A stretch of DNA of 64,000 nucleotides from the NCBI GenBank assembly GCA_019057865.1, contig JAHLWP010000008.1, positions 68,424-132,423 on the forward strand, given 5' to 3'. Position numbers and translations under genes: made by a program. The DNA is from Promethearchaeota archaeon. GTDB lineage: Archaea > Asgardarchaeota > Lokiarchaeia > Sigyniarchaeales > SOKP01. How positions within the stretch are numbered: the stretch's first letter is position 1; each line of letters starts with the position of its first letter. The notes under the pieces are model-generated. The model saw only the letters and a program-made list of their open reading frames with translations, was not told the DNA's origin and searched no databases. This document shows positions 6,429 to 64,000 of the stretch, piece after piece.

Positions 6429-6438
6429 TTTCTACACC

Positions 6439-6980: not shown

Positions 6981-7496
6981 TCATTCATTATTAGGATGAA
7001 TAGGCTTCAAATATGGAAGATTTTTTATTTCCATCAAAGTTCCGGTAGCCTTGATCAATTTTCTGAAATCAGGTCCGGGGATTTGTAAAGTTTCGGTATT
7101 AACATTTGGATGGCAACAAACCATTTCGGCATTCCATATCTGTTCATCAACCATGAAAATCACCTTATTATTAGTATCATTAACTAATGCAATCGGAGAT
7201 ACAGCACCAGCAGTAATACCTAATATCTCAGAAAGGTCTTCAGGTTCGGCAAAGCGAACTTTTGGAGCACGTATCAATTTACGGAATTGGTTTAAATCCA
7301 GACGCTTTTCATGAGGTATGGTAACTAAATATAATTGCCCGGATTTTTTATTCTTAAGAAACAAATTTTTACAATGAGTACCCGGGATGTGTCCACAATG
7401 CACTCTCGCTTCTGGTACAGTGAACACAGCCGGGTGAGTATGTAAGACATATCGAATATAATGGTCAGCTAGCCATCGCTTTAATGAATCTTCCAT
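6981..7496 (-). CDS. ProX/PrdX-type (YbaK superfamily) aminoacyl-tRNA editing protein
   Basis: HPAVFTV, KNLFLK, LGITAGAVSP and HPNVNT motifs. Confidence 0.85.
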   Translation of the reverse strand: MEDSLKRWLADHYIRYVLHTHPAVFTVPEARVHCGHIPGTHCKNLFLKNKKSGQLYLVTIPHEKRLDLNQFRKLIRAPKVRFAEPEDLSEILGITAGAVSPIALVNDTNNKVIFMVDEQIWNAEMVCCHPNVNTETLQIPGPDFRKLIKATGTLMEIKNLPYLKPIHPNNE

Positions 7497-7667: not shown

Positions 7668-9323
7668 ATGAAAAATAATGTATTTACTTTTATTGTTGGT
7701 GGAAAAGCTGGAGAAGGTGTAAAGAAAGCAGGATCAGTAACGGCACATATTTTTTCAAGTATGGGAAGATATGTTTTTCAAATGGATGACTATATGAGCT
7801 TAATAAGAGGAGGTCATAATTTCTCAGTTGTTAGTACTTCTCAAAGATGGATCAGCAGTCATTATATGAAAGCAAATTTGATAGTAAATTTTGATAAAAG
7901 AAGCTGTGAAACTCATATTAATGATGTTGATGAGGAAGGGATTATTATTTTTAATTCAGATGAACAAGAGGATGTAGAAGGGATTGGAGTTCCATTAAGC
8001 TCGATAGCTAAAAAATATCCCCTTAAAAGCTTAATGTATGGAGTTGGGGCTGTAGCGGTTTTATCTTCTGTTATAGGTTTTAAAAAAGAAGAAATGAATC
8101 AAATCATAAAAACTGAGTATCCAAGAGGTATTGATAATAATATTTCTTTTGCAAGTGAGATATATGATATTGTAAATCCTAAATGTGGAAGTAAGTTTCC
8201 TTTAGAAAGAGGAGACTATAAGAGACCAATCATAACAGGCAATGAAGCAATAAGTTTTGGTGCGATCGCTAGTGGATTAGATACTTATTATGGATATCCA
8301 ATGACTCCAGCTTCATCAATTTTACATTTTTTAGCTAAGCAAGCCGAAAATTTTGGTTTAGCAGTTGTTCATGCTGAAAGTGAAATTGCTGTGATAAATA
8401 TGGCTATTGGTTCTGCATTCACAGGGACAAAATCTATGGTTGGTACAAGTGGAGGAGGCTTTGCACTTATGACAGAGGGCTTTTCTTTAGCAGGTATGAC
8501 AGAAACTCCCTTATTAGTGATATTATCCCAGAGACCCGGACCTGCCACTGGTGTACCTACTTATACAGAGCAAGCAGATCTAACATCTTCTCTTTCAGCT
8601 GGTCATGGAGATTTCCTGCGAATTGTAGCATCTCCTGGAACCATAGAAGAAGCCTATTATTTAACAGCGGAAATGATGGACATTGTGTGGAAATTTCAAA
8701 CACCAGGAATCCTACTTACTGAAAAACATTTATCAGAAAGTAGTATAACAGTTGATATTGAGATTGAAAAGGCTAAGTGGGCTGAACCTAAGATGCATCA
8801 AGGTGAAAATTATAAGAGATATCTTGATACGAAGGATGGTATTTCTCCTATGTTATTTCCTCCATCGAAAGAAATCATAAAATGGAATAGTTACGAACAT
8901 GATGAGTTTGGAATTACAACTGAAGATGCTAATCTGATAGAAAAGATGCATGATAAAAGAAATAAAAAAAATAGAGTAATTCAAGACTATCTGATGAACT
9001 TAAATACTGTTAATGTTTATGGAAATGGGGAACCGATAATTTTTTCCTACGGGTCTACTACCATGAGTGTATTAGAAGCACTTAAATACGGTAATATTGA
9101 AGCAACAGTAGTTCAACCTATATATTTAAATCCCATACCTATCTGGAATCTTGAAAGTTATAGAGATAAAGAGAATTTAGTCGTGGAAATGAGCTCAACA
9201 GGTCAATTTGCAACTTTACTTAAAGAAAAAATAGGGATCTCTCCTAAAGCAGAGTTAAGGCAATATAATGGAAGGCCTTTTGATCCTATTGACTTATCTA
9301 ATAAAATAAAAGAGGTGTTTTAA
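7668..9323 (+). CDS. korA: 2-oxoacid:ferredoxin oxidoreductase alpha subunit (gamma-alpha fusion)
   Basis: GGKAGEG, IRGGHN, YPMTPAS, TSGGGFALM, QRPGPATG.PT motifs. Confidence 0.88.
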   Translation: MKNNVFTFIVGGKAGEGVKKAGSVTAHIFSSMGRYVFQMDDYMSLIRGGHNFSVVSTSQRWISSHYMKANLIVNFDKRSCETHINDVDEEGIIIFNSDEQEDVEGIGVPLSSIAKKYPLKSLMYGVGAVAVLSSVIGFKKEEMNQIIKTEYPRGIDNNISFASEIYDIVNPKCGSKFPLERGDYKRPIITGNEAISFGAIASGLDTYYGYPMTPASSILHFLAKQAENFGLAVVHAESEIAVINMAIGSAFTGTKSMVGTSGGGFALMTEGFSLAGMTETPLLVILSQRPGPATGVPTYTEQADLTSSLSAGHGDFLRIVASPGTIEEAYYLTAEMMDIVWKFQTPGILLTEKHLSESSITVDIEIEKAKWAEPKMHQGENYKRYLDTKDGISPMLFPPSKEIIKWNSYEHDEFGITTEDANLIEKMHDKRNKKNRVIQDYLMNLNTVNVYGNGEPIIFSYGSTTMSVLEALKYGNIEATVVQPIYLNPIPIWNLESYRDKENLVVEMSSTGQFATLLKEKIGISPKAELRQYNGRPFDPIDLSNKIKEVF

Positions 9324-9327
9324 TAAA

Positions 9328-10167
9328 TTGGAAGATCTTAAAACTAGTGCCGAAATTACTTGGTGTCCAGGATGTGGTAATTTTGGAATCTTTACTGCCA
9401 TTCGTAATGCAATTCCAATATTAGAAAAAAATGGAATTTCGAGAGAAAAGATTGTAATGACAGCGGGTATTGGATGTCATGCTAAAATATTTGATTACTT
9501 GAATTTAAGTGGCTTTTATGGACTACATGGAAGGAATACTTCAAACTCAGAAGGTATAAAGATTGCAAATCCTGATTTAAACATAATTAATTTTTCTGGA
9601 GATGCAAATGGATTAGCAGAAGGATTAGCACATACAATGTTCGCAGCAAAAAGAAATCAAGATATGACATATATTTTACATAATAATAGTGTATATGCTC
9701 TAACAACAGGGCAATTCTCTCCATTAGCAGAAAAAGGTTGGAAAGGGCCCTCTACTCCCAGAGGAAGCTATGAAGAACCATTTAATCCAATGTCTTTAAT
9801 GATTGAGGCAGGTGCTACTTTTGTTGCAAGAGGTTTCTCTGGAGACATAAAGCATCTCACAGATATTATAGTACAAGGAGTTGAGCATGAAGGTTTCTCT
9901 TTCATAGAAGTATTACAACCTGCTGTCCCATACCATAAATGGAGAGAATATCGAGATCGTGTTGAGTATCTTGAAAAAGAACCAAAAACTTATTTTGAAG
10001 CTATTAAAACTGCCAAAGAAAAACATAAGTTTACTTTAGGAATGTTTTATAGAACTCAACGATCTGTTTATCACAAAGAATTGTACGGTGATCATAATCC
10101 CATAACTCAGAGAATAACTCGAGAAGAGAGATTGAAAAAAATTAGAGCTATACTTTTTCTTAAATAA
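9328..10167 (+). CDS. korB: 2-oxoacid:ferredoxin oxidoreductase beta subunit (TPP-binding)
   Basis: WCPGCGNF, GIGC, SGD..G and YALTTGQ.SP; TTG start. Confidence 0.88.
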   Translation: MEDLKTSAEITWCPGCGNFGIFTAIRNAIPILEKNGISREKIVMTAGIGCHAKIFDYLNLSGFYGLHGRNTSNSEGIKIANPDLNIINFSGDANGLAEGLAHTMFAAKRNQDMTYILHNNSVYALTTGQFSPLAEKGWKGPSTPRGSYEEPFNPMSLMIEAGATFVARGFSGDIKHLTDIIVQGVEHEGFSFIEVLQPAVPYHKWREYRDRVEYLEKEPKTYFEAIKTAKEKHKFTLGMFYRTQRSVYHKELYGDHNPITQRITREERLKKIRAILFLK

Positions 10168-10287
10168 TAATTTTCCATTTTTATGTTATTTTTAACAGTA
10201 CACTTATTAATTCTTGCACGAATTTTTAATTAAGCATATATTTTCTTATAAAATTCTTAGTTAAAAACATGTGTTAGGAAGATAAGT

Positions 10288-11442
10288 ATGGAAATAACTA
10301 GAAGTGAGGACTGTCTGATATTTAATGGTCTTACACCTGAAATTACTAGGATGAATAGAGTCTATGATGCATTCGCAGAATTTATGAGCAATAAACAGGC
10401 TAATGATCCATCCGATAGATTTAATTTTATTGTATTTCAAGAAGATGGTCCAAATTATTTAAATAATTTCACATTATATCCTGAATATATTATAGATACG
10501 TTGAAATCGTTAAATGCTACAATAACTAGGGCTAATGTAGCGGGAGGAATTTTTGTGGCTGTAACATTCATAATTGATGTATTTAAAAAAATTTCTGATA
10601 AATTTTTTCGTTTAATTATTCTTGTGGATGAAGGTTCTCGAAAAATTCCGCCTCAATTTATTCCTGTTTTGGAAGACCTAATTTATAAAGTTAAAGATAT
10701 GCCTTTTTTCATAGACGTTATACGTATTAATGACTATAATCTTCAAGAAGGAGAAAAACTGAATAAATTGGCTAAAATATGTAATGGTAAATTATATGAA
10801 ATACATAGAATTCGAGATCTTTTTCCGTTATTAGAAAAACTTTCAGAAAAGAAATATATTAAAATACCTGAATTTTATTTTAAACCAAGTGCCCCCCACA
10901 TTCCAAACGAAAACCAGCCGTTTTATATTAATCTGGCTGATGCTCCAATAGAGGTAGAAAAAACGTCAACATGTGCTATTTGCTTTCAAAAAGATAATTA
11001 TAATATTGTACAATGTCCATCATGTGAAACTTTAGCACATAAGACATGTTGGGCTCAGTGGGCTAAAACTACTAATATTGGAATTCCACATGTTTTTAGG
11101 TGCCATAATTGTTTTAATATATTAAAACTTGATAGTGATTTTGTTCATGATGTTCAAGCAGGGAGGTTACCTACTGCAGAACAATTAAGAGAAGTAAAAG
11201 TGCGGAATATTGTTGAATATTTACAGGATTTAGAGGCAAAACAAAAACCAGAAATAATTCATGTTCCTGACCCAATGGCAATAGAAGGGGTAGCTACTGA
11301 ATATATTGAAGAAGGTCCTCTGGAGGATAATATTTATGAGAGAAAAAAATCTGAAATAAATGTAATAATTTGCCCTAACTGTAGTAAAATTGCTACAAGT
11401 ATGAAAAAAAATTGCCCTTACTGTGGGTTTGAATTGTTTTAA
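10288..11442 (+). CDS. vWA-like domain + C4HC3 (PHD/RINGv-like) zinc finger + C-terminal zinc ribbon
   Basis: DRFNFIVF and RLIILVDEG vWA-like strands; CAIC..CPSC..H..C..CHNC; CPNC..CPYC. Confidence 0.6.
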   Translation: MEITRSEDCLIFNGLTPEITRMNRVYDAFAEFMSNKQANDPSDRFNFIVFQEDGPNYLNNFTLYPEYIIDTLKSLNATITRANVAGGIFVAVTFIIDVFKKISDKFFRLIILVDEGSRKIPPQFIPVLEDLIYKVKDMPFFIDVIRINDYNLQEGEKLNKLAKICNGKLYEIHRIRDLFPLLEKLSEKKYIKIPEFYFKPSAPHIPNENQPFYINLADAPIEVEKTSTCAICFQKDNYNIVQCPSCETLAHKTCWAQWAKTTNIGIPHVFRCHNCFNILKLDSDFVHDVQAGRLPTAEQLREVKVRNIVEYLQDLEAKQKPEIIHVPDPMAIEGVATEYIEEGPLEDNIYERKKSEINVIICPNCSKIATSMKKNCPYCGFELF

Positions 11443-11497
11443 TTTATCTAATTTCCTCGTATTTTTAGCTTATTTTTGAAATATTTCGATTTTCAGA

Positions 11498-11582
11498 TTA
11501 AATCTATTCGACCTATTGCTCTAAATGGTAATTCACTATGGAATTTGTCGTAATCAAAAATTCTCCTTCCATCTATGAGATT
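11498..11582. repeat. 85-bp direct repeat, copy 1 (displaced copy of the ugd 3' end)
   Basis: 81/85 identical to 12321..12405 by manual comparison. Confidence 0.92.
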
Positions 11583-11828
11583 ATAACAATTTTAGAAGAG
11601 AACTTTTGCTATTTTTTATCTTTAATTGAACTCTTACCAAAATATCAAAATAAAGGGATTGGTACTTAATTAAATAAAGATTTAATATTAAAGACAAATA
11701 AAAGTAATGAATGTATTAAATTACAAGTACTTAAAGTAAACAATAATGCTCAAAGACTTTATAAGCGTTTAGGCTTTTCAATTAAGGGCGAATCAGAAAC
11801 ACACTTTCAAATGATATACAAAAAATAA
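11583..11828 (+). pseudogene. 5'-truncated GNAT acetyltransferase remnant with internal TAA (11667-11669)
   Basis: Translates LLPKYQNKGIGT*...LQVLKVNNNAQRLYKRLGF, which contains GNAT motifs A and B. Confidence 0.8.
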
Positions 11829-49630: not shown

Positions 49631-50539
49631 TTATGGATTTGAAATTTGTGGAGTAGTTAAGATTTCAAGAATCGTTTCCCTATATGTTTCTATATTCCAA
49701 TCTAAATTATTCTTTAAATTTTCAGAAATTTCTTTAAATATCTTTTTGATTCTCAAGGATTCAAGATAGTTTATTTCTGGAGCAATTAAGCATAACATAT
49801 ATTGTTTTTCACCATACCTTTCACCTTCTTTTGGGTAAGAATTAAAAAATAAATAGCCTTTATTTTTAATATTTTCAATGTTTAGTAAAATTCCTTGTCC
49901 TTTAGTTATGTTATCATGCCCATAAATCGAAGTTGCAGCCTGAAACAGTTGACTTCCTAAGTCTTTAAGTGCTATCGGAAAATTTTTTTCTTTAGGATAG
50001 TAATCCTTTAACACAGGACCAATTTTATCATCCCATTCTACTAAAAATAAACAAACTAATTTTTTTTCTTCTTTAGAAATTGATGGTGTGAAATCAATTT
50101 TTAAAGAATCAAGGAATTCATTAATTTTCTTATTGATTTTCTTTGCGTCTTTATTTCTTAAAATTTTTCCAGAAATAGTAGCTAGTAAATCCTCTTCATC
50201 AAAAGGTTTAGTAATATAATCATCTACACCTAACATCTTCCCTAATCTAATATCTTCTGGAGTAGACTTTGCTGTTAAAAAGAGAAATGGAATATGACCC
50301 CATTGTGTGTTATGAGAGACATGTTCGAAAAAATCATATCCATCTATTCCGGGCATCATTATATCACTAATAATTACTTCAGGAAGCTCATCTAAATTTG
50401 AGAGGATATCAATTGCTTGTTTTCCACTAATTGTTGTAAGTACTCTATATTCTTTAGCTTCTAATAATAATTTTATATTATACAATATATCTTGGTTATC
50501 ATCGACCAATAAAATAAGAGATTTCTCAGACGAACTCAA
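49631..50539 (-). CDS. Response regulator receiver fused to a uDENN/longin-like domain
   Basis: REC motifs LLVDD, SDIMMP, FLTAK, YITKPF; C-terminal LFLVEWDDKIGPVLKDYYP. Confidence 0.75.
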   Translation of the reverse strand: MSSSEKSLILLVDDNQDILYNIKLLLEAKEYRVLTTISGKQAIDILSNLDELPEVIISDIMMPGIDGYDFFEHVSHNTQWGHIPFLFLTAKSTPEDIRLGKMLGVDDYITKPFDEEDLLATISGKILRNKDAKKINKKINEFLDSLKIDFTPSISKEEKKLVCLFLVEWDDKIGPVLKDYYPKEKNFPIALKDLGSQLFQAATSIYGHDNITKGQGILLNIENIKNKGYLFFNSYPKEGERYGEKQYMLCLIAPEINYLESLRIKKIFKEISENLKNNLDWNIETYRETILEILTTPQISNP

Positions 50540-50613
50540 TTGAATTCCCTCAAAAAACTATATGATAAATTTACTATTGCAGTTATTAATATCAATCAAG
50601 TTTATATATATTT

Positions 50614-52875
50614 TTATTTTTCAGAATGATTTAAACGTGGAAAAAATATGTTAAAAGTGGACCCTTTATCTAATTCACTCTCAACGAATACTTCACCTTT
50701 ATGAAGTTCAATTAATTCTTTTGCAATAGATAATCCTAGACCTGTTCCGGGGATTTCACTAACATTACTTGATCTATAAAATCTTTCAAATATGTGAGGT
50801 AATTCATCTTCAGAAATGCCCTTTCCAGTATCTTTAAATTGAAAGAGAACTCCATTATTTCCGTCTAAATTATATTTTCCTTTATAATTATCAAATGAAT
50901 TAATTTCAATAGTAGAATTGGCTTTTGAATATTTTATAGCATTATCAATAAAAATACGAAAAATTTGGTCAATTCGTTTAGGGTCTCCTTTTAATATAAG
51001 ATTTTTATCAATTTCAATTTTAAAGTTTAAATTTTTCTCTTTGCCAATTGGTTCCATAAGTGTTAATATATTATTAATTATCTCTAATGGATTATACTCA
51101 ATCCAATCGATATCTACTCTTTTCTCATCGATCCTCGATATCATTAAAATATCATCAGCTAATTTATGAAGTAATGTAACATTTCTATCAATCCCATCCA
51201 TAAGATTTGTTTCCACTTCTGTTTGAAGATTGTCTTTATTTTTTCTTAAAAAATCCAATGACATCAATAAGACAGTAATAGGAGTTCTCAACTCATGAGA
51301 TACGGTTGATACTAATTGCTGTAATTTAGTTTCAGCTTGTTTACGTTTAGTTATATCCAGTCCATATACATTTAAGTAATTTTCTCCTTTTACAGGTGTA
51401 ATTACAAAAGAAAAAACTTTATTATTCAATTTTAATTCAATTTGTTCAAGCTTTTGTGTCTTAATAACCTTGGAAATGGTTTCTTCTAAAATTTTTGGAT
51501 TTTGTGTGCTATTCTGCATATTGAATATACTTCGGGCGATTTTATTAGCATAAATAACACCTTCTTTTCTCAATCTGAATACAGGATATGGATTTTCGGA
51601 GGGAAACCTTGCTAAATCCCTAATTTTACTCTCAGCGATTTTGCGTTCAGTAATATCTCTACAGATTGATTGAAGGTAGGTTTTTCCACCTAAATTGATA
51701 ACTTTTGCTATAACATAGATATCTTTAATTTCACCATTTTTCGTAAGAAATTTTGTTTCAAAATCATTTCTTCCTTCTTTTAAAACCTTATCAATATGGA
51801 TTTTTGTATCTTCAATGTCTTCATTTGCATCGTAATCAGGAACTTTTAATTTTGCGAATTCTTCTCTTGAGTAACCAAGGATGTTACATATTGCATCATT
51901 AAATTCAACACCTTTAAGAGTTTTGGGATCCAGTATTACGATACTATCAGGAGATTGTTCAAAAGTGGTACGATATCTTAATTCTGCCTCTTTAAGAAGT
52001 ATATTTGCTTTTTCAAGGTCACTCGCTTTAGCAATTAAATTTTTTTCACTTAATTTTAACTTTCTAAATAAAAGATTAATAGGATTTTCTAAGCCAATAT
52101 TTATAATAGCTTTATACAAAAAGAAGAAAGAGATTATTTTAAAAATATGTCCAATTAAATTTGGAATTCCATAAGCATGTACATAAAGTGTAAAAGATAC
52201 CTCAGCAATTATAGTAAATACAATTGAGTATAATAAGGTTAGGTAAATTTTTCTTTCAAATAAAATTCGTCGCTTATAAATAATGAAAATAGTTATAAAA
52301 AGTAGAAAATCAATTATATATTCACTAATTATTTTAAAAGGTGTTAAACCAGTTCCTTCAATAAAGCAGTCAGGAAAAGCTTTTGAAAAAATTAATACTA
52401 ATAGAAGAAATGTAATTATAGTGTAAAATATGATCAGATTGTTGATTTTAATTTTTTTATTTATTACTATAGATGCAAAAAGAAAAGATCCTGACTGCGT
52501 ATAACGTGCTGCGATCCAGAATTGTGCTGCTAAGTTTGTATCATAATCAGGAAATATTTCCATACCAGGATATGCTAAAGAATGAATTAAATCTAAAAAA
52601 CCAACGTATAAGAAAGATACGCCAATTACGAGAAAAAATGAATTATCAATGCGTTTTCGAGAATTCCAGCAAATGATAAAAATACCTCCTCCTATAACAA
52701 TGCTGAAGAGTTCAGCAATTGTATGGAAAAGGAGATAATTATAAAATATAGTTAAGTAGGTTAAAAATAATATTATCAGAAAAAGATAAATTTCTACATG
52801 ATAATTTTTATTATCAGGATTTCTGCGGATAGTTGTAGTATCTGAATATAGATTATTTATTTGTTTATCAACCAT
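50614..52875 (-). CDS. MASE3-PAS membrane sensor histidine kinase
   Basis: YLLFHTIAELFSI..FLDLIHSLAYPGM (MASE3), PAS, SHELRTP, NAIKY, GTGLGL. Confidence 0.9.
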   Translation of the reverse strand: MVDKQINNLYSDTTTIRRNPDNKNYHVEIYLFLIILFLTYLTIFYNYLLFHTIAELFSIVIGGGIFIICWNSRKRIDNSFFLVIGVSFLYVGFLDLIHSLAYPGMEIFPDYDTNLAAQFWIAARYTQSGSFLFASIVINKKIKINNLIIFYTIITFLLLVLIFSKAFPDCFIEGTGLTPFKIISEYIIDFLLFITIFIIYKRRILFERKIYLTLLYSIVFTIIAEVSFTLYVHAYGIPNLIGHIFKIISFFFLYKAIINIGLENPINLLFRKLKLSEKNLIAKASDLEKANILLKEAELRYRTTFEQSPDSIVILDPKTLKGVEFNDAICNILGYSREEFAKLKVPDYDANEDIEDTKIHIDKVLKEGRNDFETKFLTKNGEIKDIYVIAKVINLGGKTYLQSICRDITERKIAESKIRDLARFPSENPYPVFRLRKEGVIYANKIARSIFNMQNSTQNPKILEETISKVIKTQKLEQIELKLNNKVFSFVITPVKGENYLNVYGLDITKRKQAETKLQQLVSTVSHELRTPITVLLMSLDFLRKNKDNLQTEVETNLMDGIDRNVTLLHKLADDILMISRIDEKRVDIDWIEYNPLEIINNILTLMEPIGKEKNLNFKIEIDKNLILKGDPKRIDQIFRIFIDNAIKYSKANSTIEINSFDNYKGKYNLDGNNGVLFQFKDTGKGISEDELPHIFERFYRSSNVSEIPGTGLGLSIAKELIELHKGEVFVESELDKGSTFNIFFPRLNHSEK

Positions 52876-52914
52876 TGATTTACCTTAATTATCTTAACTT
52901 TTTAAATTATTTTT

Positions 52915-53484
52915 TCATAAGCGTGATTTTTCAAAAATAGTATATATTGAAGTTTTATGGATTGAGTAATTAAAATTGGCAGGTATGCTTTCTTTTATTA
53001 AATTAATTACTTCTTTAACAATATTCTCATTAATATTTTTATTGTATTGTTCTAAATCTGGATCGAATTTATGTAAAAATATTGAAAAATCTACAGTTCT
53101 GTCATATTCTTGTAAAAGATTAATAACTTCTTCCATGTAGCTTAATGCTAAATTATAGCGTTCAACATCTTGAATATCAATTACATAAATTATTTTTCTA
53201 GTCCCAGCAATATATTGATTAAAATTTTCTAAATATTCTTTTCGGAAAGCTTCTTGTCCTCCAAAATCCCAAATATTATAGTTTGAGTTAGAAATCTTAA
53301 AACTTACGATATCTGCTCCCTTAGTCGGTTTAATAGAACAAAAAGATAAAAGGTTTTTAATACCTCTTAAACATAACAAGATTGAGGTCTTTCCACTATT
53401 GTCTAGACCCATAATTAATATTTTCTGAGTATATTCTCCTCCAATATCTTTACCCTTTTTTGCCATGATTGATATGAACAACAA
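52915..53484 (-). CDS. Small GTPase, Rag/Gtr-like (Arf-related)
   Basis: G1 GLDNSGKTS, G2 PT, G3 WDFGGQ, G4 HKFD, G5 TSI. Confidence 0.85.
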   Translation of the reverse strand: MLFISIMAKKGKDIGGEYTQKILIMGLDNSGKTSILLCLRGIKNLLSFCSIKPTKGADIVSFKISNSNYNIWDFGGQEAFRKEYLENFNQYIAGTRKIIYVIDIQDVERYNLALSYMEEVINLLQEYDRTVDFSIFLHKFDPDLEQYNKNINENIVKEVINLIKESIPANFNYSIHKTSIYTIFEKSRL

Positions 53485-53518
53485 TATTTAATTCTATTTT
53501 CATTCAATTTTAATATGA

Positions 53519-53854
53519 TCATGATAATGTATCTATTACATCTAAATCTCTTAACTCTTTCAGCTTTTCTTTATTAATTTCATTCGCAAAATCACTAATT
53601 GAGGAAATTAATGTAAAAATATCTAGATTTTTAATTTTATAATGATTAATATTACTCTTTTTCTCAGAGATAATGAGATTGTTATTTATTAATAATTTAA
53701 GATGTTGAGAAATAGTTGATTGCGATTTATTTAAGGTTTTTTGTATTTTTAAGGATGTTTTATCACCACTTCTTAATAACTCTAAGATTTCTAAGCGTGT
53801 TGGATCTGCTAAAATTTTTAAAAAGTCGATTAAGTATTTTTTTAATTCACTCAT
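53519..53854 (-). CDS. ArsR/SmtB family transcriptional regulator
   Basis: LADPTRLEILELL..SQSTISQHLKLL. Confidence 0.9.
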   Translation of the reverse strand: MSELKKYLIDFLKILADPTRLEILELLRSGDKTSLKIQKTLNKSQSTISQHLKLLINNNLIISEKKSNINHYKIKNLDIFTLISSISDFANEINKEKLKELRDLDVIDTLS

Positions 53855-53950
53855 TACTTATAAAACATCCTTTTAAGTTTTAATTTAAACTTCTTTATTT
53901 TTAAAAATATTTCTAATTTTTTATTAATGTTTATATAAAGATATAAAAAG

Positions 53951-53974
53951 ATGCGAATATTTAAATATCGCCAT
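53951..53974. promoter_or_regulatory. Near-palindromic candidate operator between the divergent ArsR and Lrp genes
   Basis: ATGCGAATATTTAAATATCGCCAT with perfect core ATATTTAAATAT. Confidence 0.45.
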
Positions 53975-54021
53975 ATCGTTATATAACAATAATAAATATA
54001 AATAAATCTTAAAAAAGGAAA

Positions 54022-54534
54022 ATGAGTAGTAAAATTTTCAAAATAGATGAAATTGATCGAAATATAATCCAATTAGTCCAAAATGAACCCACACTTACTC
54101 ATACTGAAATTGCGAAAAAAGTCAACAGAAGCCAGCCAACTGTAGGCATGAGAATAAAGAAACTAAAAACTTCAGGAGTATTAAAATTCCAAGCAGGTAT
54201 AAATATAAAAACAATGGATTTATGTCTTGGGCGGGTTGAGATTCAAACATTACAACCAAGAGAAATATTAGATCTGGTAAAAAAATGTCCATATATGCTA
54301 AATGCCTTCCGACTAAGTGGAACATCAAATATTAGTATTCTACTCGTCGGACCAAAATTTGAATTTCTTGATAATATTGTAAATTATCACTTTAGAAAAA
54401 ATCCTAATGTTACAAATGTTTATTTAGATATTATCACTGATGTTGAAAATGATTTTGTATTGCCTTTTGATTTTGATTGCAATACTTGCGGAGCACAGCC
54501 AGATGGGCAATGTTGTGGTAAATGTACACAATAA
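54022..54534 (+). CDS. Lrp/AsnC family regulator with Cys-rich tail
   Basis: IDEIDRNII..IAKKV..SQPTV..RIKKL HTH; tail CNTC..CCGKC. Confidence 0.85.
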   Translation: MSSKIFKIDEIDRNIIQLVQNEPTLTHTEIAKKVNRSQPTVGMRIKKLKTSGVLKFQAGINIKTMDLCLGRVEIQTLQPREILDLVKKCPYMLNAFRLSGTSNISILLVGPKFEFLDNIVNYHFRKNPNVTNVYLDIITDVENDFVLPFDFDCNTCGAQPDGQCCGKCTQ

Positions 54535-55700: not shown

Positions 55701-57143
55701 ATGAAAGTTTACAATAGTTTAACGTTTAAAAAAGAAGAATTTAAGACAATAACACCCAAAGAGGTTAAAATGTATGTTTGCGGAATCACCGCTTATGATT
55801 CAGCACATTTAGGGCATTTAAAATCAGCTATCTCATTTGATATAATCCATAGATACCTAAAATTTAAAGGATTTAAGGTAAATATAGTTAAGAATTTCAC
55901 TGATATTGATGATAAAATAATAAATCGATCAAATGAGTTAGGTATTGATTTTAAAGAATTAAGTGAGAAATATATAGAAGAATATGAAGAATTTATGGAG
56001 ATAATGAATGTCGAAAAAGAGACGAGAAATCCGCGAGCTACTGAAGTTATACCCTTTATTATTAATTTTATCAAAGAACTAATTAAAAAAGGTCATGCAT
56101 ATGAAAGAAATGGTTCTGTTTATTTTTCTGTAAAATCTTTTCCAAAATATAAAACTGTTTTTCAGACTAAAAAATTAGAAGACTTAGAAGATGAGGAAGA
56201 AGATTATCTTGAAGATCAAGACACTCTTTATGGAGAAGATAAACTTGATCCTAAAGATTTTGCTCTCTGGAAAAAGATGAAGGAAGGAGAACCTTATTGG
56301 GAGAGTCCTTGGAGTAAAGGTAGACCAGGTTGGCATATAGAGTGTTCAGCAATGGTGCTACAATACTTAGGAGATACAATTGACATCCATGGGGGAGGTC
56401 AAGACTTGAAGTTTCCACATCATAGAAATGAAATTGCTCAATCAGAATCATATACAGGGAAACCCTTTGCGAACTATTTTATTCATAATGGATTTGTGAA
56501 TGTTGATAATGAAAAAATGTCAAAAAGTCTTGGAAATTTCTTTTTAGTCTCAGATTTAATAAAACAATATGATCCAATGGTTATCCGATTTTTTTTAATC
56601 TCAAGTCATTATCGAAGCTCAATAAATTATTCTCTTGAAAATTTAAAGCAAGCAGAAAAAAATTACAATAAATTAATAAACATAATTAAAAAAATAAATG
56701 ATTTATTGGCTGTTAGTGGAAGCTCTAAAGAAACTAAGAAATTAATTTCTCGAATTGATAAAGCAGAGTTGAATATTATAAAGGCTATGGATGACGATTT
56801 TGATACACCAGTGGCGATCGCAGAAATTATGACATTAATTAGAGAACTCAATAAAGCTATTTTAGAGCAAAAAATAGAAATCACAGAGGAATTTAAAGAT
56901 AGATTTTTTAAATTTATTGAAAATATAGATTTAATTTTTGGATTTTTCCCAACTTTAAAGAAAGATTTTAAATCAGGTGTAATGGATACTACTGATGAGA
57001 AAAGTAAACTAATAAAAGATTTAATTGAGATAATATCTGATATTAGGACTCAATTAAGAAAAAGGCAGATTTATGATCTAAGTGATAAAATTCGAGAAAA
57101 ACTTAGAGAAATAGGGGTAAATATTGAAGATCAAAAAATCTAA
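55701..57143 (+). CDS. cysS: Cysteine--tRNA ligase
   Basis: [42 protein letters not shown]. Confidence 0.96.
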
Positions 57144-57687: not shown

Positions 57688-59446
57688 TTATAACTTTCCA
57701 TTAACTACTATTTCTTTTGGTGCATATTCATCTTGTACAGCGTAATTGTTAAAATTGATGCTGTAATGATCTCGCCAATGAAGTTTAACTTCTTCTAACA
57801 TTGCTTCATAAATGCTTTCTTTAATTTTCCCTTCAGCACGAATTAAGCTACCCATTGGAGTAGCTACTATTTCACCATCTTTTACAACGATTTGTCCATC
57901 CTTTATAGTGTACATTGCTGATGAAAATGCTTTTTCAACATCATGTCCAGTATAGTTTTCTGGATTTATTTTGTAAATTGCCACATCACCAATAGCACCA
58001 TTACCTAAATGCCCTCTGTCCGTAAGACCAAGTATTTTAGCATTCCCACTACGGGTAACTATACATAACTCATTTAATGTATATTCTCTGTCTATATCCG
58101 GTAATGTGGTAGCTGTACTAGCCTTTTTTGAAATATTATCTAACATTTCCTTCCGAGACTTACGATCCACCAACCATTTAAACACTTGTGGATAAGTTGT
58201 GAAAGGAGCACCGTTGGGGTGGTCCGTTGTTATTGCTATTTGATATGGATTTTTAACTAAAAGTAATAATTCAAGGCCTATAGCCCATTGTACAGCATTA
58301 ACTCCAACTTTTGGAGAAAAGAAATAGGGTACGATTCCTGATCCCGATTCTCCTTCAACTTGCCCATTTATCCACTTAACTCCTGGCTTGTTTCCCCATG
58401 CACTCGTACCTCCTAAATGGTGTAGCGCGAACTCCCAAGGGCCGTCTCCGGTCATCGTAGTTGTTGCATATTTAGTGAAAACAACTTGACCTGCATCAAT
58501 TGTTATATGCTTATTTGAGTTTATATATTCAGCTATTTGGGAAGCACCTGATTCAAAATCTCTCCAGCTTGTTCCACCATATGCATTAAATTGAACATGA
58601 GTACAATGAAAGTTTGTTTTCCTTCCAACTGAACTTTTAGGTTTAATATTCTTTGTTAATTCAAAAGTTTCAAGTGAGTGTTTAAAATTTCCTGGATGTC
58701 CAAGATTATTACAATGGACATGAATTGAATGGGGTAATTCTAGCATTTCATTCGCTTTTGCTAAACTTTCAACAATTTGTCTGGGTGTAACATCCCAATG
58801 AAAAACCTCATCATCAAGAGAACTGACGTTTTTTAGAGTTCAATTTTTAAGCAAAATTGGAATCGCCCCATGCCCAGTTCTCGACTCCTCCCGGATTTAC
58901 AAGCTTAATTGCGAAACCCTTTGTAGCTTTTAAAATCCATGCGACATAAGCGGCTAATTTGTCTATTTCACCATTTTTAACATATTCCATTACAAACCAG
59001 TTGTTTCCAAATAATGGGAAGGCACCCTTGTCAATAATAGGGGTTTCTAAAAATTCTTCATGAGTATGCCGGGCTTCAAGTAAGGGCATAGCTGGCTCGA
59101 ATACAGTAGTGAATCCTAATTGGGCATATTTATATCCAGTAATCCATGTGGATGGAACAGAGAACCCAGTACCACTGCGTGTCAGTCGAGTCTTCTTCAT
59201 CGTAGCCTCCATATGTTTATCTTCAGGGCGAAGTGATCGACCGGCGTTAACTTTCGCACCAGCAATGTGAGAATGAAGATCGACTCCGCCAGGCATAACA
59301 ATCATTCCATCAGCATTGATAACTTTTGAATCTGCTCCCGCATTCTCTGAAATTTTGCCATTTTTAATATGGATATCTTTCTTCTCGCCATCGATGTTAT
59401 TCAATGGGTCATAAACTAAACCATTTTTAATGATTAAATTATTCAC
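57688..59446 (-). CDS. fwdA: Formylmethanofuran dehydrogenase subunit A, split by a 31-nt insert; join(59446..58864, 58832..57688) = 575 aa
   Basis: 5' part: PGGVDLHSH, RPED, EARHTHEE, KLVNPGG. 3' part: HSIHVHCNNLG, TDHPNG. Removing the insert gives continuous NWAWGENVSSLDDEVFHWDVTPRQIVESLAKANEMLELPHS. Confidence 0.9.
58833..58863 (-). other. Candidate bulge-helix-bulge mRNA intron in fwdA (31 nt)
   Basis: Minus-strand intron ATTCCAATTTTGCTTAAAAATTGAACTCTAA; central helix GGGG/CUCU, 3-nt bulges CG|A and AA|A, internal hairpin, exon-exon stem GAGAACUG/CAGUUCUC. Confidence 0.78.
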
Positions 59447-59575: not shown

Positions 59576-60271
59576 CTAATTCTTTAAAAAACTATTAGAA
59601 CTCCATATAATGATGTCTCTCTTAACCTTAAAATTTAAGAGTATTTGATTAGGAATTGGATTACCAATGACAGATATGCAGTTCAGATTTTTCAAGCTAT
59701 CTAATCCATTAAGATCCTTTATTAAATTTTTATCAAGAAGCATAGATTCAAGAGTTGCTAGATTATTAACACCCTTAATTTGACTAAGTTGGTTTTGCCT
59801 TAGATTGAGAACCTTTAAATTAATTAAATTTCTGAATCCTTTCATCTCAAAAATGGTATTATTCTCAAGCCCTAAATAAGTTAATTTAATTAATTTATCA
59901 AGACCTTTTATCTCTGAGATATTATTTCCGTCAAGATGCAAAATCTCTAAATTCTCTAATTTACCAAGTCCTTTTATCTCAGAGATATTGTTGTAACTAA
60001 TATCAAGAACTCTTAATTTTTTAAATGAATTAAGACATTTAATTTCAAGAATTTCATTTGCATCTAAAAAAAGTTCTTCTAAATTAACAAGATTTTCCAA
60101 ATGTCTTATTTCAGAAATAAAATTTCCACTCAATTCAAGTCTTCTTAAATTCCTTAACTCTTGAATACCATGTATGTCCGAGATGTTCTCTATATCAAGC
60201 CCGCCAAGGCTCAATGAGTTATCATGTCTAGATAAAAATATTCGCTTCTGCTTATAAATAACAAATTCCAT
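59576..60271 (-). CDS. Leucine-rich repeat protein (SDS22-like)
   Basis: Repeated 22-aa LxxLxLxxNxISEIKGL units. Confidence 0.9.
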   Translation of the reverse strand: MEFVIYKQKRIFLSRHDNSLSLGGLDIENISDIHGIQELRNLRRLELSGNFISEIRHLENLVNLEELFLDANEILEIKCLNSFKKLRVLDISYNNISEIKGLGKLENLEILHLDGNNISEIKGLDKLIKLTYLGLENNTIFEMKGFRNLINLKVLNLRQNQLSQIKGVNNLATLESMLLDKNLIKDLNGLDSLKNLNCISVIGNPIPNQILLNFKVKRDIIIWSSNSFLKN

Positions 60272-60307: not shown

Positions 60308-63300
60308 TTAACCTAAATATTTATCTTTATTCAATGATGTCCAATATGCATTATCAGGTAAGTATATATTCCAATCTTCCTTCAATTGTCGAAAAGCTGT
60401 TATTGAAGTACCCAACATTTCTAATAATTCATATTGTCTAAAATCAAAAACCATTTCTTGAAGCGTCTGAGCATCAATATTGAGAGAATCTAGTTTTTCT
60501 AGCAAAATTTCATAAGAGCTTGCTCTTTCACTTAGAACTTTAAATTTTCTCTCTAAACCTAAACCATACTTCCTTCCAACTTCCCACATCTCATTGAATA
60601 GTCTAGCACCAAGAGATAACGCATATACAGATTTCCAATGTCTTAAATTTCCATCGGAATCTATAAACCACATTTCTCCTTGATCTTCCCTAACACTAAA
60701 TTTAATATTAAACACTCTTCTCACTTGTTCTAGAAAGTGTCTGTTAGAAGATACAATCGCAGAGGTGCCTGAGATACCATCTCCGCAGTAATATCCAAGG
60801 AGCCATGTTAGCATTATCTCACGTCTTAAATTTTGACTCAACCCTCTGCAATGCTTATCAAAATCTGGAAGATCCTTTCTATCTGCTTTAGAACTAGCAA
60901 AATTATTCTCTAATAAATCTTCACCCATAGGTTTGCAAGTAAAACTTAAATAAGCTGTCTTAGATTTATACTTATTCCCATAAAGATTATTTCTCCATTC
61001 ACGTTCACGGATCCTTATTTGATAAGAAGTTGCAGTAGAATCTAATTGCACAAAATCTCTAAATTGTTCTATAAGAGCCTTATCTTTTATCTGCAATTCT
61101 AACCAGAGCCGGTATTTCGGCGAATATTTGTCCCCCTCTTTATAATATCTTGTTATCAAAGAACCATCAGCACTTAATAAACCATGCCAAAATGATTTAA
61201 TAGGATTATCTAATGTTTTAAAGCAATGAGGATCACCTACATTATGTTGTTCCATTGGATAAGCCTTTAAAATATTATGACTTTCATAATATTCTACCTT
61301 CTTAATTATATGGAGAGCTCTCTGACCAAAATAATCATGTAAGTTTCTCTTAGCTGTATCAATTTCTTCTTGTGAAAACTTATAATCAGGATTTTTCTTA
61401 AGATATTTTAGCTTATTAGAAATATCATCAACGTGTCGAGTCCCTGCTCTATAATAATTTAGCCCAAGATATTTACTTATTCTCCACATTGGTACTCTTC
61501 CGTAATATAAATCTGAGACAGGGACTAATTTTTTAATCTCCTCCTTTATATAATCAATAAGAACTTTAGTATCCGTGAAGTCAATTGGAAAGTCACCGAC
61601 TTCCCAAAGTGATAGCCCTAGCTCTAGCGCCTGCTTCCCAACAATGGACTGTGGTCCCAAAACCTCTAGCTTATCTATCATCTCTTGAGTGACGACAGTC
61701 TTCTGTGGCACAGAAAGGGCTCTCGTCTCTTCAAGTAATGATTGCTCTAAATCATGATACCAGATAGCCTGCATAGGATCTGAAAATTCAAAATGCCATT
61801 GTTGCAAAGGCTGAGGAACCAAACCCTCTTGAATATCAACCGTGTCCTCAAGGATTGCTTTGATTGAATCTTTATTTATCCTAGAACTTACCATCACTTT
61901 AACAACAGGAGATAAAGAACCTGCTAGAGTCACAGGAACAAATGTACCCATTAAACACCCGCTAAAGAGCATAAGGGTAGACATAACAAGCTGACCCCCC
62001 GCATCCTTTAAGGATTGCGTCTGCAAACTATTTTTCATCTCGCTTACTTGTGCCTGTGATTCAATCGAAGAATGCTTCATAGTGGTCCTAAGTACATGAT
62101 CAGTTCGCATATCATTTAACATACTATACATATTCCCCCTAAAGCCCTTTTTTAAGGCACTAAAAACCCCACCAGTAAGGGCTTCTCTTGCACCCTCGGC
62201 AAGCGAACTCCAGAGAACCTGCTCCCAGAAACTACCTCCCGCCCTTTCAACAGTCTTTGAAACATAATTCTCGATATATGGATCAATATATAATTCTTGC
62301 AATATCTCAGAAGGAATTGCTTTAAGCGTACTAAATGCAATCTTTCCAAGAGAAGCGCCCGATGCAAATCTACCAACAGCCGAAATTCCCATCATTATTA
62401 AAGTACTCCAGAAAGTAACGAAAATGGTATGCTTAATCTCTTCAAGTCTACTTTGTGTCACTTCTGCTATAGTGAACTGATAGAGATATTCTAACATCTT
62501 TGCCTGAGCAGATTGCATAGTCGCTATCTCCTCTATCTCTTCTGAAGTGAGATCACGGGTATCGCTCATGTTTCTAAATTTCTCAACATAAAGTTTTAAG
62601 CAGAGATAGGGCTCATAACTGGAAGGATGCTCCATTTCAAAATCAAGAATAGTCTTAAATGTAGCAAACCTTTGCTCATCAATGGTCAAAACTCCACTGG
62701 TAGAGTTGAAACTATATCCGTCATTATATAGTGTACCCTTAAATTCACATTTAACCCACTCATCACCCTGAACTCCAACCAAAAATACATCTATATACTC
62801 TATATCAGAATAAAACTCATGAACGCTATAATCTGGAACCACTTGTATTTCATAGGTGCTCCCATCAAATATCTTATAAATTGTGTGATGCTCATCTTTT
62901 ACCTCATCATAATACTCTTCAGGGACAAATATTGGATATTCCTCATAAAACTCTGGGAGAGGAATATTTCCTTCCGAACTTGCAAATTCCAAAGAAGGCA
63001 TAAATGTTCCGACACCATATAACATATAAGGTATAATGGTATCATAATGCTCATCATGATTCTCGGTAGTTAACCTACTTATCTCATCTTCCAAATACAT
63101 AAGTGAATTCTCCATATACAAACTTGAAAAGAAAATATTATAAAGTTCTTGTGGTACATCTCCATCATGCAACATAGGGAAACTAGAAAATAGTGGCTTC
63201 ATTCGTGGATCATTATAGTCAGAATATGCGGTATAACCTCTTGTCTGCAGTGAATAATCTAATGTAAGCGATTTAAACTGAACATCATACCCAGACATTG

Positions 63301-64000
63301 GTACAGTTTTCACCAAACCTCGTGGAGCAAGCACGACTTGCCCTTCGTATAGATGTTTATCAGTCTCAACTCGTATAGGAGCATAAATACCCGTCTTGCT
63401 ACCAAAAAATGCATGAGTCATGAGACCTTCATCAAAATCATCCGCAGATAGTATGTCTGATAAGGTCACTTCTCCCTCATAATCTACATTATGGAATGTC
63501 TGGGAACGGATATAATAATCCAAATCTCTCTTTTCAATATAGGCATTAATTGCTGTTATGATTGCATATGATATCATGTACGCAGCAAACTCGACAATCT
63601 TGCCGATAAGTTCAGCATAAGCAGCAGTATACGGAATAGCATAAGCGATAGCTCTAGCGACATACCCACAAACCTGACTGATTGTAAAAGCCATAAGCTG
63701 AGTCTCAACTTGCTCCCAAACATCATCCCACTTTCTTTTAGAAAGCGACTCAATGAACCTATCATGGGTAAGGTCTCTTGTCTCTTCAATTAATTTACTA
63801 GTCCCGTATGAATACTCCATTTTCCAAATATCAAACATAGCATCTCCAAATGAAGTCTCAAAGAAGACACCATCATAATGATCAGTATCTTGGAAGTGAA
63901 TTAGCTTATCATTGACATAACTCATGGCATGATAATAACTTGACTTCTTCCAACCAGAAGGCTTACTACAAATTATGTGTCTTTCTACAATTTGCCTTTT
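60308..64000 (-). CDS. 3' part of a very large membrane-associated protein with C-terminal LAGLIDADG-like nuclease domain (5' end beyond the window)
   Basis: Frame stays open from the track ATG (63925) to the window edge; hydrophobic stretches; SFWHGLLSADGSL and TWLLGYYCGDG motifs. Confidence 0.7.
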   Translation of the reverse strand, partial: KRQIVERHIICSKPSGWKKSSYYHAMSYVNDKLIHFQDTDHYDGVFFETSFGDAMFDIWKMEYSYGTSKLIEETRDLTHDRFIESLSKRKWDDVWEQVETQLMAFTISQVCGYVARAIAYAIPYTAAYAELIGKIVEFAAYMISYAIITAINAYIEKRDLDYYIRSQTFHNVDYEGEVTLSDILSADDFDEGLMTHAFFGSKTGIYAPIRVETDKHLYEGQVVLAPRGLVKTVPMSGYDVQFKSLTLDYSLQTRGYTAYSDYNDPRMKPLFSSFPMLHDGDVPQELYNIFFSSLYMENSLMYLEDEISRLTTENHDEHYDTIIPYMLYGVGTFMPSLEFASSEGNIPLPEFYEEYPIFVPEEYYDEVKDEHHTIYKIFDGSTYEIQVVPDYSVHEFYSDIEYIDVFLVGVQGDEWVKCEFKGTLYNDGYSFNSTSGVLTIDEQRFATFKTILDFEMEHPSSYEPYLCLKLYVEKFRNMSDTRDLTSEEIEEIATMQSAQAKMLEYLYQFTIAEVTQSRLEEIKHTIFVTFWSTLIMMGISAVGRFASGASLGKIAFSTLKAIPSEILQELYIDPYIENYVSKTVERAGGSFWEQVLWSSLAEGAREALTGGVFSALKKGFRGNMYSMLNDMRTDHVLRTTMKHSSIESQAQVSEMKNSLQTQSLKDAGGQLVMSTLMLFSGCLMGTFVPVTLAGSLSPVVKVMVSSRINKDSIKAILEDTVDIQEGLVPQPLQQWHFEFSDPMQAIWYHDLEQSLLEETRALSVPQKTVVTQEMIDKLEVLGPQSIVGKQALELGLSLWEVGDFPIDFTDTKVLIDYIKEEIKKLVPVSDLYYGRVPMWRISKYLGLNYYRAGTRHVDDISNKLKYLKKNPDYKFSQEEIDTAKRNLHDYFGQRALHIIKKVEYYESHNILKAYPMEQHNVGDPHCFKTLDNPIKSFWHGLLSADGSLITRYYKEGDKYSPKYRLWLELQIKDKALIEQFRDFVQLDSTATSYQIRIREREWRNNLYGNKYKSKTAYLSFTCKPMGEDLLENNFASSKADRKDLPDFDKHCRGLSQNLRREIMLTWLLGYYCGDGISGTSAIVSSNRHFLEQVRRVFNIKFSVREDQGEMWFIDSDGNLRHWKSVYALSLGARLFNEMWEVGRKYGLGLERKFKVLSERASSYEILLEKLDSLNIDAQTLQEMVFDFRQYELLEMLGTSITAFRQLKEDWNIYLPDNAYWTSLNKDKYLG

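What the first reader, a model, noticed from the sequence alone, without database searches (positions are those of the whole stretch)
58818..58882. Candidate BHB (tRNA-type) intron inside the protein-coding gene fwdA
Seen: fwdA is broken by a 31-nt insert carrying an in-frame TAA and a frameshift, while both flanks are intact FwdA sequence. The minus-strand RNA reads GAGAACUG-GGCAU-GGGG-CG|A-UUCCAAUUUU-GCUUA-AAAAUUGAA-CUCU-AA|A-AAACGU-CAGUUCUC. It can fold as a 4-bp helix GGGG/CUCU between two 3-nt bulges (CGA, AAA). The helix is closed inside by an intron hairpin (UUC/GAA plus AAUUUU/AAAAUU) and outside by a U-A pair and a perfect 8-bp exon-exon stem (58875-58882 with 58818-58825). Cutting after the second nucleotide of each bulge removes exactly 58863-58833 and gives TGG GGC GAA AAC GTC (W-G-E-N-V), a single 575-aa ORF. 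Established: the archaeal splicing endonuclease EndA cuts BHB motifs this way and RtcB ligates the exons; mRNA introns of this type are known from very few genes, mainly crenarchaeal cbf5. Inference: an Asgard archaeon splices the mRNA of a core C1 enzyme, possibly as a regulatory switch, reminiscent of the non-spliceosomal RtcB-ligated XBP1 intron. The central helix has two G-U pairs, so the fold is plausible but unproven.
Basis: partly seen in the sequence, partly recalled or inferred. Interest (0 to 1): 0.95.

Follow-up and report, generated by a model that had tools for sequence, protein, structure and literature searches.

The report
Mini-intron in fwdA beside homing endonuclease
A 31-base insert that breaks a carbon-metabolism gene (fwdA) of an Asgard archaeon is very probably a tRNA-style intron cut out of the messenger RNA, and it sits beside a selfish DNA-cutting gene that may be what spreads it, although no RNA data exist yet.

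Summary
A 31-nt insert (58863-58833, minus strand) breaks fwdA, and cutting it at the bulge-helix-bulge (BHB) positions restores a 575-aa FwdA. Two other lineages carry 29- and 30-nt inserts of different sequence at the same nucleotide with the same BHB. Six genomes carry BHB inserts at a second fwdA site, with compensatory changes. A motif-blind comparison with a congener found 20 frame-breaking 26-36-nt coding inserts: 16 are strict BHBs (antisense 2; shuffles 0.5). In this genome they break aEF-2, aIF-2gamma, LeuRS and S12. Two EndA subunits and RtcB are present. Splicing is inferred (about 0.88), not shown. This intron's own fold is weak and gives Glu where 75 of 80 relatives have Lys. Related nucleases flank most intron-bearing fwdA alleles, which suggests collaborative homing (about 0.6). 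A regulatory switch is not supported. This scan reported such introns and nuclease pairs before on other DNA; I found no paper on them in Asgard mRNA.

The parts
58864..59446 (-). fwdA exon 1 (GTG start, 194 codons plus 1 nt); belongs to a foreign replacement 5' segment
   Evidence: NF042911 positions 2-191; dN/dS 0.09-0.10 against relatives; 83% nt identity to the G012 orthologue versus about 93% for the rest of the gene; falls outside the clade of its own 3' half in a tree
58833..58863 (-). 31-nt BHB intron with an in-frame TAA and a frameshift
58866..58869 (-). exon strand of the 4-bp central helix (GGGG)
   Evidence: same strand in L041 and L257, paired there with CCCU
58863..58865 (-). 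5' bulge CG|A; predicted cut between 58864 and 58863
   Evidence: BHB rule (PMC2738675); inferred
58839..58862 (-). intron hairpin (inner helix), -4.1 kcal/mol
58835..58838 (-). intron strand of the central helix (CUCU)
58832..58834 (-). 3' bulge AA|A; predicted cut between 58833 and 58832
   Evidence: BHB rule; inferred
58818..58882 (-). outer exon-exon pairing: U58870-A58831 and the 8-bp stem 58882-58875 with 58825-58818, beyond a 4x5 internal loop; not conserved in the other site-1 alleles
57688..58832 (-). fwdA exon 2 (381 codons to the stop); native to the lineage from about 58790 onward
   Evidence: NF042911 positions 193-566; dN/dS 0.06-0.08; 90-98% nt identity to G012 from gene position 631 on
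59576..60271 (-). leucine-rich-repeat gene between the nuclease and fwdA; same position in metagenome contig L257
   Evidence: Pfam LRR_4 and LRR_8
60308..64000 (-). large ORF (at least 1205 aa, open to the contig end) ending in a two-motif LAGLIDADG homing-endonuclease domain at about 61501-60311; both acidic motif residues present
   Evidence: nearest relatives lie beside intron-bearing fwdA alleles

Best explanation
The insert is an ORF-less BHB intron. The pre-mRNA folds locally so that exon GGGG pairs with intron CUCU between two 3-nt bulges. The two-subunit EndA cuts after the second base of each bulge and RtcB joins the exons, giving a 575-aa FwdA. The geometry and the enzymes are shown; the cutting is inferred. 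It is one of at least 20 such 28-33-nt mRNA introns in this genome. Its most likely route of arrival and persistence (about 0.6, separately) is collaborative homing. The free-standing LAGLIDADG gene upstream probably cuts intron-less fwdA near codons 190-195, the intron disrupts that target in the donor, and repair brings in nuclease, LRR gene and a replacement fwdA 5' half with the intron. In this genome that event left the native 5' half stranded on another contig.
For: Same-site inserts of different sequence with the same BHB in L041 (30 nt) and L257 (29 nt); both restore W-G-K-N and fold well (pairing probability 0.8-0.9). Second fwdA site: six genomes, 93.8% of cells paired, 14 double-sided changes, 0 of 500 shuffles as high, central helix CUUG/CAAG versus CAUG/CAUG. 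Motif-blind census against 2.4 Mb of congener G012: 16 of 20 frame-breaking 26-36-nt coding inserts are strict BHBs, versus 2 of 20 antisense, 2 of 33 in-frame indels, 3 of 51 non-coding indels and 0.51 +/- 0.71 in shuffles (maximum 5 in 5000). Swapped inserts pair 4/4 in only 12 of 240 cases. Hosts include aEF-2, aIF-2gamma, LeuRS and S12, which have no close second copy. Two EndA subunits and RtcB are intact. Both exons are under purifying selection. Nuclease link: LAGLIDADG fold; same nuclease-LRR-fwdA(intron) order in an independent contig; nuclease or remnant beside 3 of 4 intron-bearing versus 1 of 42 intron-less fwdA loci with enough flank, and that one has an altered site-1 sequence; the two best homologues in 161 genomes flank intron-bearing fwdA; native 5' half broken 13 nt before the splice site.
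Against: No reads, transcripts or peptides were available. This intron's BHB is weak in wider context (probability 0.07 or less with 40+ nt of flank), although introns in aIF-2gamma, Elf1 and acs score as low. The canonical register gives Glu instead of the usual Lys. A distant intact FwdA-like paralogue (29% identity) exists in an fwd operon on C37, so this copy may be dispensable, and a recent inactivation would not yet show in dN/dS. The nuclease target is unknown. One site-2 locus (L029) has no nuclease nearby, acs in G012 has the nuclease but no introns, and about half of the intron-bearing genes in G000 have no such neighbour. The loci are related, so the association counts overstate independence.
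Confidence: 0.86

Rival explanations
1. Intron by descent, but this copy is no longer spliced efficiently. The fwdA gene is a recent pseudogene and the C37 paralogue, or no enzyme, serves the cell.
For: Weak fold with two G-U pairs, where the other site-1 alleles have one; Lys-to-Glu at the junction; a distant intact paralogue; a rearranged locus.
Against: No other lesion in 1.7 kb; dN/dS 0.06-0.10, like the intact controls (0.115); 4/4 central pairs and the hairpin are retained; introns in essential genes show equally low computed pairing.
Confidence: 0.08
2. A chance hairpin insertion, transposon footprint or assembly error has broken the gene.
For: Metagenome-assembled genome with 5.15% contamination; no second record of this exact allele.
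Against: No other copy of the insert in the genome; independent inserts at the identical nucleotide in two other assemblies; 9 of 20,000 shuffles as good; strand-specific genome-wide enrichment.
Confidence: 0.02
3. Ribosomal bypassing or frameshifting over the insert, as in T4 gene 60, with no RNA cutting.
For: A stop codon within a hairpin, and a homing endonuclease next door, resemble that case (from my own knowledge).
Against: No matching take-off and landing codons; inserts of all three length classes; the conserved feature is exon-intron pairing at BHB spacing.
Confidence: 0.02
4. The intron is spliced and is a selected regulatory switch on C1 metabolism, like XBP1.
For: Unspliced RNA would yield a 199-aa truncated product; removal of a 5' UTR BHB intron appears to aid expression in Haloferax (PMC7714728).
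Against: Present in 2 of 161 genomes and absent from the closest relatives; similar inserts in unrelated genes, five within 460 nt of acs.
Confidence: 0.07
5. The intron is spliced, but the neighbouring giant ORF is unrelated to it (for example a polymorphic-toxin-like protein with an LRR immunity gene, or an island that landed in fwdA by chance).
For: Very long, variable N-terminal region; LRR gene 36 nt downstream; similar N-termini carry other nuclease types; many introns have no nuclease neighbour.
Against: Nuclease relatives track fwdA across genera and on either side of it; nuclease subfamilies match the modified site (L041 and L058 are 67% identical and both have a changed site 1); the break lies 13 nt from the intron.
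Confidence: 0.35

Closest known systems
BHB intron of crenarchaeal cbf5 pre-mRNA (Watanabe 2002; Yokobori 2009, PMC2738675)
   Same: Short ORF-less intron in a conserved part of a coding sequence, cut between the second and third bulge residues by a hetero-oligomeric EndA; patchy gain and loss.
   Different: cbf5 splicing is shown by cDNA, and a 2020 paper still lists it as the only coding-sequence case (PMC7714728). Here the host is an Asgard metabolic gene, the genome holds at least 20 such introns, and splicing is only inferred.
Short hairpin BHB introns of Thermoproteales 16S rRNA, e.g. Pog.S1205 co-converted by the endonuclease of neighbouring intron Pog.S1213 (PMC4496867)
   Same: An ORF-less BHB intron under 50 nt mobilised by a LAGLIDADG enzyme encoded outside it, which cuts the intron-less site.
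   Different: There the host is rRNA and the nuclease lies inside another intron 8 nt away. Here the host is mRNA and the nuclease domain ends a giant free-standing ORF about 1.4 kb away; cleavage is untested.
Collaborative homing in phages (Zeng 2009, Bonocora and Shub 2009; described in PMC2988022 and PMC10448857)
   Same: A free-standing endonuclease gene next to a gene with an endonuclease-less intron; co-conversion of flanking exon sequence.
   Different: The phage introns are self-splicing group I ribozymes; this one depends on host EndA and RtcB and lies in an archaeal chromosome.
Asgard tRNA BHB introns (bioRxiv 10.64898/2026.10.13.758758)
   Same: Same lineage, motif and two-subunit EndA; repeated independent gains; splicing not yet shown in Asgard cells.
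   Different: That study covers tRNA genes only (no occurrence of 'mRNA', 'homing' or 'LAGLIDADG' in its text) and leaves the route of arrival open.
XBP1/HAC1 non-spliceosomal intron
   Same: Short intron removed by an endonuclease and joined by a tRNA ligase (own knowledge).
   Different: Cut by IRE1 at two stem-loops, stress-regulated and conserved. There is no sign of regulation or conservation here; the resemblance is an analogy.

Membership tests
Archaeal BHB (EndA-spliced) intron | 4-bp central helix between two 3-nt bulges on opposite strands | tested here: met
   GGGG/CUCU (two G-U pairs), bulges CGA and AAA
Archaeal BHB (EndA-spliced) intron | Flanking inner (intron) and outer (exon) helices | tested here: inconclusive
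   Inner helix present (3 plus 6 bp). Outer helix is one U-A pair, then a 4x5 loop before 8 bp. The motif is a minor fold in wider windows
Archaeal BHB (EndA-spliced) intron | Cuts after bulge position 2 restore the uninterrupted host sequence | tested here: met
   575-aa ORF colinear with intron-less orthologues; junction residue Glu where most have Lys; exact Lys in L041 and L257
Archaeal BHB (EndA-spliced) intron | Structure conserved by covariation among homologous introns | tested here: met
   Site 2: 14 double-sided changes, 0 of 500 shuffles (related sequences inflate this). Site 1: three different sequences keep the motif
Archaeal BHB (EndA-spliced) intron | EndA and RtcB encoded in the genome | tested here: met
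   PF01974 on C71 and C69; PF01139 on C75; no stops
Archaeal BHB (EndA-spliced) intron | Spliced RNA or circular intron observed; cleavage by EndA | not testable with these tools
   No RNA data or assay
FwdA (formylmethanofuran dehydrogenase subunit A) | Match to the family models over the full length | tested here: met
   Exon scores 287 and 477 bits on TIGR03121 (cut-off 393), consecutive positions; orthologue matches PDB 5t5i_A at E 2e-205
Free-standing LAGLIDADG homing endonuclease | Two LAGLIDADG motifs with acidic residues and the LAGLIDADG fold | tested here: met
   Motifs ending ADG and GDG; all top 50 Foldseek matches are LAGLIDADG enzymes, best E 3e-7; Pfam score below cut-off
Free-standing LAGLIDADG homing endonuclease | Not within an intron or intein | tested here: met
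   C-terminal domain of a separate ORF; no intein family matched
Collaborative homing pair | Nuclease co-occurs with the intron-bearing or otherwise altered allele of the neighbouring gene | tested here: met
   3 of 4 versus 1 of 42 informative fwdA loci, plus G000 and L257; exceptions exist
Collaborative homing pair | Nuclease cuts the intron-less site and spares the intron-containing one | not testable with these tools
   Only indirect: native 5' half broken 13 nt from the intron site

The most novel reading that the evidence does not exclude
Lokiarchaeia splice dozens of protein-coding mRNAs, essential ones included, with the tRNA machinery. These ORF-less mini-introns spread as immunity marks for a family of giant free-standing nucleases (LAGLIDADG and probably HNH, GIY-YIG and PD-(D/E)xK types). 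The fwdA locus would be such a homing event caught shortly after it happened.
Probability: 0.5. Interest if true: 0.9.

Novelty: new variant of a known kind. Interest (0 to 1): 0.78.

Why it matters
In the papers I could search, splicing inside an archaeal coding sequence is documented only for cbf5. If these inserts are spliced, the closest prokaryotic relatives of eukaryotes routinely splice mRNAs, and their genome annotations wrongly show core genes (EF-2, IF-2gamma, LeuRS, S12, RpoA1, FwdA) as broken. The nuclease link gives a testable answer to a question that a 2026 preprint on Asgard tRNA introns leaves open, namely how BHB introns arrive: one cleavage assay on intron-less versus intron-containing fwdA DNA would test it.

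Tried and rejected
A de novo genome scan for BHB plus joined ORFs gave thousands of candidates with no length peak and was not specific; I replaced it with a motif-blind genome comparison. A relaxed local scan around nuclease genes was uninformative. The insert has no other copy in the genome, so a repeat or MITE was rejected. Other excision lengths also open the frame, but only 31 nt matches the orthologues without a gap. The register that gives Lys (58864-58834) pairs only 2 of 4 central positions by inspection, so it was not preferred. No relative of the nuclease domain was found in viral contigs. The 199-aa unspliced product is not on record in the assembly collection. The C54 copy is not an intact second fwdA: it stops at codon 190. 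The strongest nuclease-proximity value (5 of 14 host genes against a 1.1% background) uses a family that I partly defined after seeing the neighbours, so it is biased. Counting only LAGLIDADG genes with Pfam hits and leaving out fwdA gives 2 of 13 (GTPase, acs). About 1.1 Mb of G012 could not be fetched, and introns shared by both genomes are invisible to the census, so intron counts are lower bounds. Literature searches found no report of Asgard mRNA introns; subscription papers are largely outside that library.

Full report
Observation. The window is G000:C3:68424-132423 of a 4.26-Mb, 29% G+C genome, 99.7% complete with 5.15% contamination. Its relatives are Promethearchaeota (Lokiarchaeia). 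fwdA runs 59446-57688 on the minus strand and appears as two ORFs. The halves match consecutive parts of the FwdA models. Intron-less orthologues align without a gap only if 31 nt are removed. Only 9 of 20,000 shuffles of the insert do as well. There are weak points: two G-U pairs, a single outer pair before an internal loop, low pairing probability beyond about 25 nt of flank, and Glu at a position where 75 of 80 relatives have Lys.

Same gene elsewhere. Among 80 related fwdA loci, one (L041, another genus) has a 30-nt insert of different sequence at the same nucleotide, with GGGG/CCCU and bulges AAA and AGA. A pattern search of 161 genomes found only that one and G000. A metagenome contig (L257) adds a third, 29-nt version. 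Both restore W-G-K-N exactly and fold well (0.8-0.9). A second site, after G-D-G-P-W, carries 30-nt inserts with in-frame stops in six genomes of two genera. Their structure covaries: 93.8% of cells paired, 14 double-sided changes, none of 500 shuffles as high, and the central helix switches between CUUG/CAAG and CAUG/CAUG. These sequences are related, so the shuffle count is not a probability.

Same genome. I aligned 2.4 Mb of a congener (G012, 87% identity) to G000 and collected indels without using the motif. Twenty coding inserts of 26-36 nt break a frame, 13 in G000 and 7 in G012. Sixteen form a strict BHB on the sense strand, against 2 on the antisense strand, 2 of 33 in-frame indels, 3 of 51 non-coding indels and 0.5 in shuffles. 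Inserts moved to another site pair fully in 12 of 240 cases. A protein-level pass added more, including five inserts in acs and three in LeuRS. Hosts include aEF-2, aIF-2gamma, LeuRS, S12, Elf1 and, with a 65-nt insert, RpoA1. These have no close second copy; the nearest paralogues are 32% for EF-2 and 24% for IF-2gamma. A living cell needs those proteins, so some mechanism must remove the inserts. Two intact EndA subunits and RtcB are encoded. Several of these introns have computed pairing as low as the fwdA one, so a weak prediction is not disqualifying. Both fwdA exons show dN/dS of 0.06-0.10, like intact controls.

The window's fwdA is a chimera. Its first 570-630 nt are 83% identical to the G012 orthologue and the rest about 93%. 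In trees the 3' part groups with L001 and L003 (support 1.0), while the 5' part lies outside that clade. The native 5' half, with its native upstream region and neighbours, is on contig C54 (2851-2282). It is 92.6% identical to G012 and ends at codon 190, 13 nt before the splice site. Upstream of the window copy lie an LRR gene and an ORF of at least 1205 aa that ends in a two-motif LAGLIDADG domain, confirmed by fold. L257 has the same order (nuclease 52% identical, LRR, fwdA with intron) in a different fwdA lineage and with different downstream genes. Related nucleases lie just downstream of fwdA in L041, L051 and, as a remnant, L019, all intron-bearing. Among intron-less loci only L058 has one, and its site 1 reads W-S-R instead of W-G-K. 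For loci with enough flank this is 3 of 4 versus 1 of 42. Searching 161 genomes with the nuclease alone, the two best hits are those beside intron-bearing fwdA. Other intron hosts also adjoin giant nuclease-type ORFs: the GTPase on C48, acs (C82 joins C39 by a 55-nt overlap), an alpha/beta hydrolase, ADH and LeuRS in G000, and acetoacetyl-CoA synthetase and a ubiquitin E2 in G012. The HNH, GIY-YIG and PD-(D/E)xK labels for three of these rest on motifs read by eye; Pfam did not confirm them. About half of the hosts have no such neighbour, and some nucleases sit beside intron-less genes.

Mechanism. Shown: the insert, its geometry, the enzymes, recurrence and covariation, the chimeric gene and the adjacent nuclease. 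Inferred: EndA cleavage and RtcB ligation of this mRNA (about 0.86-0.88); nuclease cleavage of intron-less fwdA near codons 190-195 with the intron as protection (about 0.6); and that the end of C3 and the start of C54 are the two ends of one inserted segment (plausible from synteny, not bridged). A regulatory role is unlikely given the patchy occurrence.

Comparison and novelty. The intron meets every testable feature of archaeal BHB introns except a strong outer helix. The only coding-sequence case I found in print is cbf5; other cases were predicted but not confirmed (PMC2738675; PMC7714728). Mobilisation of an ORF-less BHB hairpin intron by a neighbouring LAGLIDADG enzyme is known in Pyrobaculum 16S rRNA (PMC4496867), and collaborative homing is known in phages. 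A 2026 preprint on Asgard tRNA introns does not treat mRNA or homing and leaves intron arrival open. Both components are therefore known kinds; their use on many Asgard mRNAs with free-standing nucleases is a new variant. Earlier notes of this scan describe the same kind of intron in at least 25 genomes, fwdA among them, and nuclease-intron pairs at kae1, carB, metK and EF-2. I reached the intron and homing readings before the corresponding look-ups and do not count those notes as evidence.

Verdict. A real, very probably spliced mRNA intron, one of many in this lineage, with unusually good circumstantial evidence of how it arrived. Interest 0.78.

Noticed in passing
G000:C54:2851-2282 (L254): Native 5' half of fwdA truncated at codon 190; beyond the break lie a PCNA_N-domain ORF with a basic tail and a Rho_N/SAP-domain ORF, absent from the syntenic G012 region.
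   Followed up: partly
G000:C82:579-124 (L269): Acetyl-CoA synthetase gene with five 30-33-nt BHB-like inserts in 460 nt; the contig joins C39 by a 55-nt overlap, placing a LAGLIDADG giant ORF 27 nt from the gene's end.
   Followed up: partly
G000:C49:5260, 6048, 6129 (L265): LeuRS with three inserts (28, 30, 28 nt), 275 nt downstream of a 1565-aa acidic ORF with a C-terminal exonuclease-like domain.
   Followed up: partly
G000:C82:40903; C63:36100; C27:25059; C27:30478; C75:101436: BHB-type inserts in aEF-2, aIF-2gamma, ribosomal protein S12, RpoA1 (65 nt) and Elf1, each in a conserved motif.
   Followed up: partly
G000, 24 ORFs on C3, C4, C9, C22, C23, C30, C39, C41, C48, C49, C58, C60, C63, C65, C69, C75, C77, C80, C83, C87: Family of large modular proteins (340-1560 aa) that share N-terminal platforms and end in interchangeable nuclease-like domains; the function of the N-termini is unexplained.
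   Followed up: partly
L058:4550-4600 and 5812-7416: Intron-less fwdA with an altered site-1 sequence (W-S-R) next to a LAGLIDADG gene 67% identical to that of L041: candidate intronless homing.
   Followed up: partly
L182:8349 and 8689-11691 (G012): Ubiquitin E2-like gene with a 32-nt BHB insert, 340 nt from a 1001-aa ORF with GIY-YIG-like motifs.
   Followed up: no
L215:10778 (G012) and G000:C48:46556: The same small GTPase gene carries a BHB insert at a different site in each genome (30 nt and 33 nt).
   Followed up: no
G000:C37:50559-54468: Divergent fwdA-like paralogue (572 aa, 29% identity), intact, in an operon with fwdB- and fwdD-like genes.
   Followed up: no
window 49631-54534: ArsR, small GTPase, PAS histidine kinase and response regulator in one direction, then an Lrp/AsnC regulator; cysS at 55701-57143. 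Ordinary Lokiarchaeia content by inspection.
   Followed up: no
G000 genome: ARAGORN finds only 18 tRNA genes in a 99.7% complete genome, most with introns, which suggests that many multi-intron tRNAs are missed.
   Followed up: no
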